A program made the position numbers and the translations under genes. DNA of 64,000 nt, from assembly GCF_009914755.1 (NCBI RefSeq), contig NC_060925.1. One strand, written 5' to 3'. The notes beneath the pieces are model-generated. The model worked only from the letters and a program-made list of their open reading frames with translations, searched no databases and was not told the origin of the DNA. Below are positions 43,666-47,016 of this stretch, in pieces; position 1 is the first letter of the stretch; each line of letters starts with the position of its first letter. The stretch is from the human T2T-CHM13v2.0 reference genome, Homo sapiens.

Positions 43666-44199
43666 TAGGAAAAGGGGACAGCCTGTGCAAAGTCCCTGAG
43701 GTGATCAGATATTCCAGGAACTGGCAGAGACCTTCTTGGCTACAGCATAGTGATCAGAGTAAAATGAGATGAGGCTGGAGAGGCAGGTAACAGCCTTATC
43801 ATGCAGGGCCTAGTTTGCCATAATAATGAATTTGATAAAATAATTTGTAATCACTTTTATGAACCAATCATGGCACGTCATCATCATATGTCCTGGCACG
43901 GTCCCTCCCCTGTTGTATTTATTTTTCCCTACTCATTCTTGCCCTTGTCTCCCCTCCCATAGTCCCCACTTTCTCTTAGTTATATGTCCCCCCATTTATT
44001 TATTTATTTATTTATTTTTATTTCTTTTAGAGATGAGGTCTTGCTGTGTTGCCCAAGCTGATCTCAAGCTCTGAGGCTCAAGTGATCCTCCCACCTCAGC
44101 CTCCCAGAGTGCTAGGATTACAGGCATGAGCCACAGTGCCCGTCCCATTTATTTATTTATGAGACAGGGTCTTGCTCTGTTGCTCAGGTTGGAGTGTAA

Positions 44200-44361
<162 letters not shown>

Positions 44362-44546
44362 TGAACTCCTGACCTCAGGTGATCCGCCTGCCTCGGCCAC
44401 TTATTTATAACACAAATATTTACTGACCATTGACAGTGTCAATAAATTTGTTCTAGTTCTAGTAGGGTTCTAGTTGCTGGAGATAAGGCAGTGATCAAGA
44501 TGGACAAGGTTCCAATCTTCTTGGAGTAGACATTCTGGTACCATTA

Positions 44547-44705
<159 letters not shown>

Positions 44706-44893
44706 CTAGTGGCGCATGCCTGTAATCCCAGCTACTCGGGAGGCTGAAGCAGGAGAATCGCTTGAACCTGGGAAGCGGAGGTTTCAGTGAGCCAAGATCC
44801 CACCATTGCATTCTAGCCTGGGCAACAGAGTGAGACTCTATCTCAAAAAAATAAATAAAATAAAATAAAATCAGTGTAAAGGAATAGAGAGCA

Positions 44894-45319
44894 GCTGACA
44901 CGCTGTCCTCTGGCGACCTGTCGCTGGAGAGGTTGGGACTCTGGATGCGTGCGGGGCTCTGGCCTACCGGTGACCCGGCTAGCCGGCCGTGCTCCTGCTT
45001 GAGCCGCCTGCTGGGGCCCGCGGGCCTGCTGATCTCTCGCGCGTCCGAGCGTCCCGACTCCCGGTGCCGGCCCGGGTCCGGGTCTCTGACCCACCCGGGG
45101 GCGGCGGGGAAGGCGGCGAGGGCTACCCTGCCCCCGTGCGCTCTCCGCTGCGGGCGCCCGGGGCGGCCGCGACAACCCCACCCCACTGGCTCCGTGCCGT
45201 GCGTGTCAGGCGTTCTCGTCTCCGCTGGGTTGTCCGCCGCCCCTTCCCCGGAGTGGGGAGTTGGCCAGGGCCGATCGACTCGCTGGCCGGCCGGCCCGCC
45301 TCCGCTCCCGGGGGGCTCT
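44894..45319 (+). pseudogene. Retrocopy of the 47S/45S pre-rRNA 5' external transcribed spacer, from +1 to about the A'/01 site
   Basis: Begins GCTGACACGCTGTCCTCTGGCGACCTGTCG (Pol I +1); GC-rich ETS sequence ends at CCCGGGGGGCTCT. Confidence 0.92.
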
Positions 45320-45709
45320 AATGTGGCACATATACACCATGGAATACTATGCAGCCATAAAAAATGATGAGTTAATGTCCTTTGTAGGGACATGGATGAA
45401 ATTGGAAATCATCATTCTCAGTAAACTATCGCAAGAACAAAAAACCAAACACCGCATATTCTAACTCATAGGTGGGAATTGAACAATGAGATCACATGGA
45501 CACATGAAGGGGAATATCACACTCTGGGGACTGTGGTGGGGTTGGGGGAGCGGGGAGGGATAGCATTGGGAGATATACCTAAGGCTAGATGACGAGTTAG
45601 TGGGTGCAGCGCACCAGCATGGCACATGTATACATATGTAAGTAACCTGCACAATGTGCACATGTACCCTAAAACTTAAAGTATAATAAAAAAAAAAAAG
45701 AAAAAAAAA
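45320..45709 (+). mobile_element. 5'-truncated L1PA2-like 3' end with poly(A), fused to the 5'ETS copy
   Basis: ORF2 C-terminus [17 protein letters not shown]; 3' UTR with GACGAGTTAG and CTTAAAGTATAATAAA; shared TSD AAAGGAATAGAGAGCA at 44878-44893 and 45710-45725. Confidence 0.92.
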
Positions 45710-47016
45710 AAAGGAATAGAGAGCAATGGGGAAGAGGGGTCAGGGTGAGGAGGAGGTTAAGGAAGTGGCATTTGACTGTATCCTTGTAAAATATGTTATA
45801 TTTTTGTCTGTGTATGTTTTAAATTTATATGAATGATATTGTGCTACATATGCCATTTTTTACTCAACAACATTGTTTTCAAGATCTAACCATGTCAGGC
45901 CAGGTGTGGTGGCTTACGCTTGTAATCCCAGCACTTTGGGAGGCCGAGGTGGGTGGATCACTTGAGGTCAGGAATTTGAGACCAGCCTGGCCAACACGGT
46001 GAAACCCCGTCTCTACTAAAAATACAAAAATTAACCGGGTGTCATAATGCCCACCAGTAATCTCAGCTACTTGGGAGGCTGAGGCAGGAGAATCACTTGA
46101 ACCCAGGAGGCGGGGAAGTTGCAGTGAGCTGAGATTGCGCCACTGCACTCCAGCCTGGGCAACAGAGCTAGTCTCCAACTCAAAAAAAAAAAAAAAACAA
46201 AACTAACCATGCTCTAAAAGTGCACATGCACATGGTTCATAGCTTCTTAGTGCTGCCTGTCAGTCCTTGATATGCATCCACCACTTACCCATTTCCTATC
46301 AGCTCCTCATCCATAAATTATTCCAGGGTGAATATCCTTGTACATTTCCACAGGAGCTAGTGCTAGAATTTCTCTGAGACATGTAACTGGGAGAGGGATC
46401 ACTGGATCCTAGAGTTTACACCTACCTCTGTTCCATCAGATTACTTTCCAGAAAAGCTGTTCTTGTCTGCCACCTTCTCACCGTCACTGGGTTTTTTACC
46501 ATTCTAATATTTGTCATTCTGCCAGGTGTGAAAGCGGTATCTTGTTTTAATCTGTGTGTCCCTGATTCCTGGCAGGTTTGGGCATTTCTTCATGTACTTA
46601 GTCATTTTGGCTTCCTCTTCTGAGAACTGCCTGCTCATTTCCTCCAGCCTTTCATTTTCAGAACTTTTTTAAAAATGGGTTTTTTATCTTGTTGATTTGC
46701 TAGAGTTGCTAGTATAGAAGGAAATATCTATTGGGTGATAACTTTGTTGATGATGTCCTTTGAGGAACAGAAGTCTTCAATTAAATAAAAAGCAGCACAC
46801 ATTTCAACTGTTTCCATTTTCCCTTAAGAGGATGACACAGAAGGGAAATGCAGTTATGCCTGCAGACCCTTCATGAACTGCATGGATCCTCCTGACTCCT
46901 TTTCTCAGCCTCTTGACTAACTCAAAGAGCCATTTAAAAAAATGCCAGATATAGGCCAGGCGCAGTGCTCATGCTTGTAATCACCAGCACTTTGGGAGGC
47001 TGAGGCGGGCAGATCA

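What the first reader, a model, noticed from the sequence alone, without database searches (positions are those of the whole stretch)
44878..45725. Chimeric retrocopy: pre-rRNA 5'ETS (+1 to the A'/01 cut) fused to an L1 3' end, a fossil of an rRNA processing by-product
Seen: one 16-bp TSD (AAAGGAATAGAGAGCA) encloses 426 nt of 5'ETS, about 370 nt of L1PA2-like 3' end and a poly(A), so this was a single insertion. Known: the ETS part starts at the Pol I +1 nucleotide with no upstream promoter. It stops at GGGGGGCTCT, just before the conserved GATCGATGTGG motif, where the first 47S cleavage (A'/01, about +414 to +422 in older numbering) maps. The captured piece therefore matches the normally degraded +1-to-A' spacer fragment. 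No microhomology is visible at the CTCT|AATGTGG junction. U6/L1 chimeras share this architecture and have been attributed to RtcB ligation of a 2',3'-cyclic-phosphate RNA to L1 RNA. Inference: this may be an analogous ETS/L1 class, which would record the in vivo A' cut position, hint at its end chemistry, and place L1 RNPs in contact with nucleolar processing products.
Basis: partly seen in the sequence, partly recalled or inferred. Interest (0 to 1): 0.85.

Follow-up and report, generated by a model that had tools for sequence, protein, structure and literature searches.

The report
Pre-rRNA leader fused to L1 retrocopy
One old L1 jump copied the discarded first 426 bases of the ribosomal RNA precursor, joined to an L1 tail, into an intron of PMF1; it is a one-off fossil of a normally short-lived processing by-product, not a family.

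Summary
Window 44878-45725 is one L1-type insertion: a 16-bp target-site duplication, 426 nt of pre-rRNA 5'ETS, 368 nt of a young L1 3' end and a poly(A) tail. The ETS part starts at +1 with no promoter. It ends at U426 in the 45SN1 numbering, which the CHM13 rDNA copy shares. Nanopore remapping puts the site 01/A' cuts at C423^U424 and G429^U430, so the end lies between them, 3 nt from each. It marks the cleavage zone, not a precise cut. The junction CTCT|AATG has no overlap. Two things were missed. ATGTGG, which opens the L1 part, recurs in rDNA 9 nt past the junction (chance about 0.8%). The junction AA could hide an oligo(A) tail. The locus is a singleton in this genome: leader patterns give 225 matches and the stretch just past A' gives 224, all on the forward strand. 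No ETS/L1 class exists here. The 2026 L1-chimera catalogue lacks it. A 2022 paper noted ETS stretches in PMF1 without a retro reading. The joining mechanism (template jump or RNA ligation) and the A' end chemistry cannot be read from one locus. Verdict: a new member of the known L1-chimera kind, of moderate interest.

The parts
44878..44893 (+). 5' copy of the target-site duplication (AAAGGAATAGAGAGCA). The cut context GT/AAAG lies just after the A-rich tail of an upstream Alu.
   Evidence: Alu-like (7SL-related) matches at 44564-44680 and 44699-44846.
44894..45319 (+). Retrocopy of 47S/45S pre-rRNA 5'ETS nucleotides +1 to +426: the leader released by site 01/A' cleavage. No Pol I promoter. 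76% G+C, with 52 of 61 CpGs retained.
   Evidence: Site 01 positions from PMC13201660 Table 1.
45319..45320 (+). ETS/L1 junction CTCT|AATG, with no shared nucleotide between the two parents.
45320..45687 (+). 5'-truncated young L1 3' end: the remnant of the ORF2 C-terminal coding region plus the 3'UTR, in sense with the ETS part.
   Evidence: 39 of 39 other full-length scored matches are 98-99% identical; 4 of 368 private differences; frame 2 reads as the end of an ORF with a stop (its identity as ORF2 is recalled; Pfam gave no hit).
45685..45709 (+). AATAAA signal and a 22-nt poly(A) tail with one G.
45710..45725 (+). 3' copy of the target-site duplication.

Best explanation
One target-primed reverse transcription event by the L1 machinery took place in intron 1 of PMF1, in sense with the gene. 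This is shown by the anatomy. ORF2p nicked a GT/AAAG site next to an Alu tail and primed on the poly(A) of an L1 RNA. It copied the last ~390 nt of that RNA. The cDNA then continued on the 5' leader of the Pol I primary transcript, from about U426 back to the very first nucleotide.

The leader is the by-product released by the first pre-rRNA cleavage, site 01/A'. It is normally destroyed quickly by XRN2. This step is inferred from the two ends of the ETS part.

How the two RNAs were joined is not shown. I rate an end-to-end template jump of the reverse transcriptase, from a broken L1 RNA onto the free 3' end of the leader, at about 0.55 of this explanation. A short oligo(A) tail on the leader may have helped and would be hidden in the junction AA. 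I rate prior RNA ligation (RtcB-type, as for U6/L1) at about 0.35, and other routes at the rest.

The event is old, roughly 3-30 My by divergence, and unique in this genome.
For: TPRT hallmarks: a 13-16-bp duplication flanks both parts, a single poly(A) sits at the L1 end, none lies between the parts, and the target is T/AAA.

The ETS part covers positions 1-426 of the array transcript, without promoter and without gaps. The letters C423, U424, G429, U430, G443 and A444 of the 45SN1 remapping all fit the CHM13 copy at the same numbers. So the first base is reference position 1, and the last base lies between the cuts C423^U424 and G429^U430.

Abundant human 5'ETS small RNAs start at +425 (16 of 33), +426 (14 of 33) and +432/+435 (3 of 33). 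A random end in a 3,654-nt 5'ETS falls within 423-429 with probability 0.002.

Both parts fit one age. Non-CpG differences are 6 of 304 in the ETS part and 4 of 368 in the L1 part (Fisher p = 0.36).

The leader exists as a discrete RNA that accumulates on XRN2 depletion.

Sense-oriented chimeras of L1 with U6, U3 and 28S are an established kind.

For a template jump rather than ligation:
- The end at 426 matches none of the mapped major cuts.
- The downstream fragment is ligatable by T4 RNA ligase I with no kinase step named.
- Only one such fixed copy exists, although one leader is made per pre-rRNA.
Against: The ETS end is 3 nt from either remapped cut. An extra step is needed: a minor cut at 426^427, 3' trimming, or reverse-transcriptase entry a few nucleotides inside the end. 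Trimming sits badly with the report that the leader is 'invulnerable' to the exosome.

ATGTGG opens the L1 part and recurs at rDNA +436 to +441. Only 15 of 1,876 ETS ends and 49 of 7,024 L1 breakpoints would show such a match. This explanation treats it as coincidence.

No orthologous empty or filled site could be examined, so 'one event' rests on anatomy alone.

The 3' end of the leader has not been mapped directly. The nanopore source data list no significant end site near 423-430.
Confidence: 0.82

Rival explanations
1. A pre-formed chimeric RNA. The leader carried a 2',3'-cyclic phosphate or 3'-phosphate at U426 and was ligated by RtcB, or a similar ligase, to a 5'-OH L1 fragment. The fusion RNA then retrotransposed in cis. 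It is a sub-mechanism of the best explanation and is listed apart because it carries the biochemical claim.
For: The architecture matches U6/L1: sense orientation, a full 5' partner, a variably truncated L1 and a junction without overlap or filler. Moldovan et al. allow that other partners could be ligated if an endonuclease leaves a cyclic phosphate. The leader is reported as not attacked from its 3' end by the exosome. A blocked 3' end would explain that (my inference).
Against: No data on the chemistry of the site 01 cut were found (search). The downstream product circularises with T4 RNA ligase I and no kinase step is named, so it has a 5'-phosphate at steady state. A later kinase step, as known for ITS2 (abstracts), could mask a 5'-OH. 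The end at 426 is not a mapped major cut. There is one copy against dozens to hundreds of U6/L1, despite a very abundant donor.
Confidence: 0.28
2. A microhomology-guided template switch on an uncleaved or longer ETS RNA. The cDNA end copied from L1 AATGTGG paired with AUGUGG at +436 to +441 of the pre-rRNA. The 8 nt TCGTGATC (+427 to +434) were then skipped during synthesis or deleted later, with a G-to-A change at a CpG.
For: ATGTGG occurs once in the first 1,926 nt of the transcript, 9 nt past the junction. The coincidence has an empirical chance of 0.7-0.8%. CpG transitions are common in this copy, with 9 of 61 CpGs hit.
Against: It needs an 8-nt deletion exactly at the junction, in a 426-nt copy with no other indel. 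No flanking direct repeat is present to drive slippage (read). It also needs a substitution. The left edge of the supposed deletion would fall inside the 01 zone by a second coincidence.
Confidence: 0.06
3. The ETS RNA was an abortive or prematurely ended Pol I transcript, possibly oligoadenylated by the PAPD5 surveillance pathway, and not the product of site 01 cleavage. It merely happened to end at +426.
For: Truncated Pol I transcripts confined to the 5'ETS exist, and some are polyadenylated. An A tail could pair with the cDNA of the L1 A-run, and the junction AA is compatible with that.
Against: An end within the 7-nt span between the two mapped cuts has a chance of about 0.002 for a random 5'ETS position. 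Abortive transcripts were described after actinomycin D and as heterogeneous.
Confidence: 0.05
4. Two independent events or a DNA-level capture. Either an rDNA fragment was inserted next to an older L1, or an ETS retrocopy landed at the 5' edge of a resident L1.
For: rDNA-derived DNA fragments are scattered in the genome.
Against: One duplication flanks the whole unit. There is no internal poly(A) or second duplication, and no L1 sequence lies upstream of the ETS part. The ETS part has exact transcript ends, +1 and the 01 zone, which a DNA fragment would not have. The two parts have similar divergence.
Confidence: 0.02

Closest known systems
U6/L1 chimeric pseudogenes (Buzdin 2002/2003; Moldovan et al. 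2019, PMC6789731, passages read)
   Same: A non-L1 RNA copied to its 5' end is joined in sense to a variably 5'-truncated L1 with a poly(A). One duplication flanks both parts, and the junction needs no overlap.
   Different: The partner here is a Pol I spacer by-product, not a stable Pol III snRNA. Its 3'-end chemistry is unknown, whereas U6 has a known 2',3'-cyclic phosphate. It is one copy, not a recurrent family.
28S rRNA/L1 chimeras (n = 18) and the other new partners in Law and Burns 2026 (PMC13174262; sections 11, 17, 18 and tables mmc2-mmc5 read or searched)
   Same: rRNA-gene-derived RNA fused to L1, mostly in sense (83% for 28S). The authors attribute these to ligation or template switching.
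   Different: Those are internal fragments of mature 28S, which RepeatMasker can recognise. This one is transcribed spacer, which NCBI's mask leaves unmasked according to the hub note. It has both natural ends of a processing by-product. It is not in the searched tables: PMF1, 45S, ETS and '15621' gave 0 hits.
'rDNA fragments scattered over the human genome': ETS stretches in PMF1 (Tchurikov et al. 2022, PMC8954558, passages read; its Figures S2 and S3 not seen)
   Same: It appears to be the same locus. The ETS-like stretch in the transcribed PMF1 gene is reported as CpG-methylated and matched by small rRNA-derived RNAs.
   Different: That paper treats it as a diverged rDNA remnant and a small-RNA 'target'. 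The word stem 'retro' occurs 0 times in it. The L1 fusion, the duplication, the +1 start and the A' end are not described.
The 5'-A' (+1 to 01) leader fragment of pre-rRNA processing (Wang and Pestov 2011, PMC3061060; Kobylecki et al. 2018, PMC6239190)
   Same: Same extent: from the transcription start to the first cleavage zone.
   Different: In cells it is an RNA seen only when XRN2 is depleted. Here it is a DNA copy, with an end at U426 that matches none of the mapped major cuts exactly.

Membership tests
L1-mediated (TPRT) retrocopy | Target-site duplication flanking the insert | tested here: met
   16 of 16 identical at 44878-44893 and 45710-45725.
L1-mediated (TPRT) retrocopy | 3' poly(A) tail abutting the downstream duplication | tested here: met
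   AATAAA followed by 22 A-rich nt, 45685-45709.
L1-mediated (TPRT) retrocopy | Endonuclease-type target (T/AAA on the top strand) | tested here: met
   GT/AAAG is read. The same notation, with GT/AAGA scored 'Yes', appears in Law and Burns Table S4. The TTTT/AA consensus itself is recalled.
L1-mediated (TPRT) retrocopy | Copy of an RNA, not of the gene: starts at the transcript's first base and lacks the promoter | tested here: met
   The array has ...GGGTTATT before GCTGAC, and the window has the duplication there instead. The numbering fits 45SN1 from position 1.
L1 chimeric retrogene (U6/L1 type) | Two RNA-derived parts, head to tail in the same orientation, with a 5'-truncated L1 as the 3' part, inside one duplication and with no poly(A) between them | tested here: met
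L1 chimeric retrogene (U6/L1 type) | Recurrent: several independent loci with the same partner | tested here: not met
   The 5' start without promoter gave 1 match, ours. The end followed by a non-T base gave 1 match, ours. Leader patterns gave 225 forward and 0 reverse matches; the post-A' pattern gave 224 and 0. Limit: one human genome, and only copies with at most 3 mismatches in 31-34 nt.
L1 chimeric retrogene (U6/L1 type) | The 5' partner ends at its natural RNA 3' end | tested here: inconclusive
   The end at U426 lies between the cuts C423^U424 and G429^U430 and 1-2 nt past the ends implied by small RNAs starting at +425 and +426. The leader's own 3' end is unmapped.
RtcB-ligated chimeric RNA | The donor RNA carries a 2',3'-cyclic phosphate or 3'-phosphate and the L1 fragment a 5'-OH; the chimeric RNA exists before reverse transcription | not testable with these tools
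   There is only indirect, opposing evidence. The downstream 01-A0 fragment circularises with T4 RNA ligase I and no kinase step is named.
Template switching with junction microhomology | Nucleotides shared by both parents at the junction | tested here: not met
   0 nt at CTCT|AATG. Caveats: the junction AA would be shared if the leader bore an oligo(A) tail, and ATGTGG recurs 9 nt downstream in rDNA.

The most novel reading that the evidence does not exclude
The leader and the L1 fragment were joined as RNA by an RtcB-type ligase inside or near the nucleolus. The locus would then be a genomic record that the first pre-rRNA cleavage, whose nuclease is still unnamed to my knowledge, leaves a 2',3'-cyclic phosphate or 3'-phosphate end near U426. 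That would also explain why the leader resists the exosome. It would further show that L1 ribonucleoproteins meet pre-rRNA processing by-products in germline cells.
Probability: 0.22. Interest if true: 0.7.

Novelty: new member of a known kind. Interest (0 to 1): 0.45.

Why it matters
It adds a transcribed-spacer by-product to the list of RNAs that L1 has fused with and copied. Catalogues built on repeat annotation miss such partners, because spacers are not in repeat libraries.

It is a DNA fossil of an RNA that cells destroy so fast that it is seen only after XRN2 depletion. It places an L1 reverse-transcription complex next to an early nucleolar processing product.

It gives a concrete, testable lead for the unknown chemistry of the site 01/A' cut: look for leader/L1 junction reads and for the leader's 3'-end type.

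There is also a practical point. The copy is 96.5% identical to the true leader. In assemblies without rDNA arrays it will attract 5'ETS reads (RNA-seq, small-RNA-seq, Pol I or UBF ChIP) to PMF1 intron 1. That may underlie the published 'small-RNA target' reading of this gene (my inference).

Tried and rejected
- Rfam scan of 44000-46500 at E up to 1: only Alu/7SL-type and weak chance matches, nothing for the insert.
- Pfam on the 47-aa reading of the L1 part: 0 families. L1 identity rests on DNA identity to other copies.
- Buzdin et al. 2003 (PMC169886) is not held. I could not check whether its tables list a pre-rRNA partner.
- Literature searches for an ETS/L1 chimera gave nothing relevant. 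One search gave 0 papers. One search gave one unrelated paper, checked. Robicheau et al. 2017 discusses DNA-level rDNA remnants only, with 'retrotranspos' occurring 0 times.
- A search for the end chemistry of site 01 gave nothing on that site. The RNase MRP paper only lists an A' oligonucleotide, with no result for it in the passages shown.
- A sequence-string search for papers that show the A' context returned only that paper.
- The older site numbers (C414-C416, G420-U422) do not fit the CHM13 letters at those numbers (position 422 is G), so I used the 45SN1 remapping. Kobylecki's 5' ends (415-424) are in U13369.1 numbering. I could not convert them, because that record is not available here.
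- BLAST of the leader against the genome scores only 40 of 227 candidates, and all but ours are chr13 array copies. I therefore counted copies with patterns instead.
- The L1 subfamily name ('L1PA2-like') could not be tested because no repeat library is at hand. I give only divergence.
- Not done: ape orthologues (no primate genomes held), an empty-site search and RNA-seq junction reads.
- Not readable here: supplementary PDFs of PMC13174262 (mmc1, 6, 7), PMC13201660 (Figs S5-S7) and PMC6239190, and Figures S2/S3 of PMC8954558. They may bear on whether the locus, or the leader's 3' end, is already described.
Full report
WHAT IS THERE

Window 44878-45725 is bounded by two identical copies of AAAGGAATAGAGAGCA, at 44878-44893 and 45710-45725. 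Between them lie three parts:
- 426 nt with 76% G+C (44894-45319);
- 368 nt with 40% G+C (45320-45687);
- an AATAAA signal with a 22-nt A tail that carries one G.

The first AAA of the duplication could belong to the tail, so the duplication is 13-16 bp. The top-strand cut context is GT/AAAG. It sits just behind the A-rich tail of an Alu (7SL-like matches at 44564-44846; sequence). This is the anatomy of a single L1 endonuclease-dependent insertion. The insert is in sense with PMF1, in intron 1, according to the hub's gene table.

THE 5' PART

BLAST of the 426 nt against the window's own genome gave 227 first-look candidates, of which 40 were scored. One was the locus itself. The other 39 were chr13 rDNA array copies at 96% identity over 1-426.

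The pairwise alignment has no gap. Identity begins exactly at GCTGAC. In the array this is preceded by ...GGGTTATT, and in the window by the duplication. Identity ends at ...GGGGGGCTCT, after which the array continues TCGTGATCGATGTGG.

All 29 fetched chr13 copies are identical over this stretch. The chr1 copy differs at 15 of 426 positions. Nine of these are at CpG sites (52 of 61 CpGs are retained) and six are among 304 non-CpG sites. In eight further copies from chr13, chr14 and chr15, 14 of the 15 positions carry the same array base. Position 139 is C or T in arrays and A on chr1.

WHERE THE ETS PART ENDS RELATIVE TO SITE 01/A'

The nanopore remapping of human processing sites (PMC13201660; section 8 with Table 1 read) gives two sets of positions for site 01:
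- the older reported positions, about C414-C416 and G420-U422;
- the proposed positions on the 45SN1 reference: C423^U424, G429^U430 and G443^A444.

Counted from GCTGAC as +1, the CHM13 array copy has C423, T424, G429, T430, G443 and A444. The two numberings therefore coincide. The first base of the insert is reference position 1, and the insert ends at U426.

The older numbers do not fit the letters of this sequence, since position 422 is G. They belong to an offset numbering.

A preprint on small RNAs (10.1101/2022.08.22.503746; passages read) reports that 16 of 33 abundant 5'ETS fragments start at +425, 14 at +426 and 3 at +432/+435. Its 31-mer starts at +425 in the CHM13 copy as well.

Kobylecki et al. 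(PMC6239190; passages read) cloned 5' ends at 415-424 in U13369.1 numbering. I could not convert these. The nucleolin-bound motif GATCGATGTGG (PMC2919729) starts at +431.

So the ETS part stops inside the cleavage zone. It stops 3 nt after the first remapped cut, 3 nt before the second, and 1-2 nt past the ends implied by the small RNAs. A random end in the 3,654-nt spacer would fall in 423-429 with probability 0.002. Together with the +1 start, the copied RNA is best read as the leader by-product of the first cleavage.

In mouse this fragment is not detectable unless Xrn2 is depleted (PMC3061060). In human cells it is said to be removed by XRN2 and not by the exosome. Its own 3' end has not been mapped. 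The nanopore source data list nuclear start sites 423, 429, 443 and 456, and the End-site values in the passages shown (11 passages) all lie between 472 and 502, apart from a single value of 92; none lies near 423-430.

THE 3' PART AND THE JUNCTION

The 368 nt match 39 of 39 other full-length scored genomic L1 3' ends at 98-99% identity. These came from 2,147 first-look candidates, of which 40 were scored.

Against the majority base of the 11 best fetched copies, the insert has 4 private differences in 368 nt. That is 1.09%, with a 95% interval of 0.30-2.78%. This set was picked for likeness, so the figure is a lower estimate.

In 10 of the 11 copies the L1 sequence before the break reads ...TTAAGAA, so an A precedes AATGTGG. 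The array has T after CTCT. The junction CTCT|AATG therefore shares no nucleotide.

Non-CpG divergence of the two parts does not differ: 6 of 304 against 4 of 368 (Fisher p = 0.36). This fits one event. With a recalled hominoid rate of about 0.9e-9 per site per year, 1.1% corresponds to roughly 12 My, with a range of about 3-30 My. The 'L1PA2-like' label was not testable here.

First, ATGTGG, which opens the L1 part after one A, occurs once in the first 1,926 nt of the transcript. It sits at +436 to +441, 9 nt beyond the junction. Only 15 of 1,876 possible ETS ends (0.8%) and 49 of 7,024 L1 breakpoints (0.7%) would show such a match within 20 nt.

A switch at this homology would predict ...CTCTTCGTGATCGATGTGGCAC. 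The observed sequence lacks TCGTGATC and has A for G. That reading therefore needs an exact 8-nt loss in a copy with no other indel, with no flanking repeat to drive it. I keep it as a rival at about 0.06 and otherwise as an unexplained coincidence.

Second, the junction AA could come from L1 or from a short oligo(A) tail on the leader. PAPD5-dependent tailing of truncated Pol I transcripts is reported. Such a tail would be hidden microhomology.

IS THERE A CLASS?

No, not in this genome.
- The ETS start preceded by anything other than the promoter's last three bases (at most 2 mismatches in 33) gave 1 match, ours.
- The ETS end followed by a non-T base gave 1 match, ours.
- Patterns at +181 to +211 and +333 to +365 (at most 3 mismatches) each gave 225 forward and 0 reverse matches.
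- The pattern at +427 to +460, just past the junction, gave 224 forward and 0 reverse matches.

The one extra leader copy is the chr1 locus. It is listed and is among the unlisted matches. The listed array copies are all on the forward strand, and no reverse-strand dispersed copy exists.

Limits: only the first 100 places are listed per search. The searches cover one human genome and copies of roughly 90% identity or more. Older copies of a fast-evolving spacer would be missed.

MECHANISM

What is shown: the insertion was target-primed reverse transcription of an L1 3' end that continued, in sense, onto an RNA spanning +1 to about +426 of the Pol I transcript.

What is inferred: that RNA was the free leader, because both of its ends are natural processing or transcription ends.

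What is open: how the two were joined. Two routes give the same DNA.
- Route (a): the reverse transcriptase ran off a broken L1 RNA and jumped to the 3' end of the leader.
- Route (b): the two RNAs were ligated first, as shown for U6/L1, where RtcB joins a 2',3'-cyclic phosphate to a 5'-OH (PMC6789731).

That paper itself leaves both routes open for partners other than U6.

I lean to (a), about 0.55 against 0.35, for three reasons:
- The end at 426 matches none of the mapped major cuts.
- The 01-A0 fragment circularises with T4 RNA ligase I on total RNA with no kinase step named. That implies a 5'-phosphate, and so more likely a 3'-OH on the leader. A later kinase, as in ITS2 processing (abstracts), could mask this.
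- A donor made once per pre-rRNA has left a single fixed copy.

In favour of (b): the junction is clean, and the reported resistance of the leader to the exosome would be explained by a blocked 3' end. That last point is my inference.

COMPARISON WITH WHAT IS KNOWN

The kind is known: sense chimeras of L1 with U6, U3, 5S, 28S and others.

The most recent catalogue (Law and Burns 2026, PMC13174262) adds tRNA, 28S (n = 18), 7SL, Y and 7SK. Its text has 0 occurrences of ETS, 45S, 47S or pre-rRNA. Its four readable tables have 0 hits for PMF1, 45S, ETS, RNA45S or the coordinate stem 15621. That stem rests on my recalled hg38 position of PMF1. The tables use RepeatMasker names for the partner, and the hub note shows the ETS part unmasked.

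The locus itself has been seen before. Tchurikov et al. 2022 (PMC8954558) mention ETS stretches in the transcribed, CpG-methylated PMF1 gene as targets of small rRNA-derived RNAs. They give no retrotransposition reading.

I found no paper that describes an ETS/L1 chimera. Buzdin 2003 could not be read.

VERDICT

- the locus is a genuine single-event chimera of the pre-rRNA leader and an L1 tail;
- it marks the A' zone to within 3 nt;
- it is a singleton, not a class;
- it does not by itself reveal the cut position or the end chemistry.

It is a new member of a known kind, of moderate interest (0.45). It offers one bold but unproven reading, ligation of a cyclic-phosphate-ended leader, which can be tested at the bench.

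Noticed in passing
window 44894-45319: The ETS copy is 96.5% identical to the true leader and keeps 52 of 61 CpGs at 76% G+C. In assemblies without rDNA arrays it will attract 5'ETS-derived reads to PMF1 intron 1. The published 'small-RNA target' status of PMF1 may be such cross-mapping (my inference).
   Followed up: partly
L057, L058 (chr14 rDNA copies), position +7; L057-L059 and L063, position +139: Array variants: the two chr14 copies L057 and L058 read G instead of A at +7 of the transcript. Position +139 is C in 5 and T in 4 of the 9 sampled copies. The chr1 retrocopy has A at both positions.
   Followed up: no
L047 (chr5 L1 copy), around locus position 1500: One of the 11 best-matching L1 copies has a different upstream sequence that joins 1 nt from the same L1 position where our chimera breaks. 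It looks like an internal L1 rearrangement. Whether this L1 position is a preferred break point was not examined.
   Followed up: no
window 44028-44306 (-), 44564-44846 (+), 45899-46183 (+): Alu elements, seen as 7SL-related Rfam matches below the gathering score, flank the insert. The insertion site lies about 7 nt past the A-rich tail of the upstream Alu.
   Followed up: no
own genome, contigs C13, C14, C15 in the listed rows: 224 array-type copies of the 5'ETS start region are found, all on the forward strand of the assembly: 225 with the chr1 copy, against 224 for the stretch just after A'. Only the first 100 places per search were listed.
   Followed up: partly
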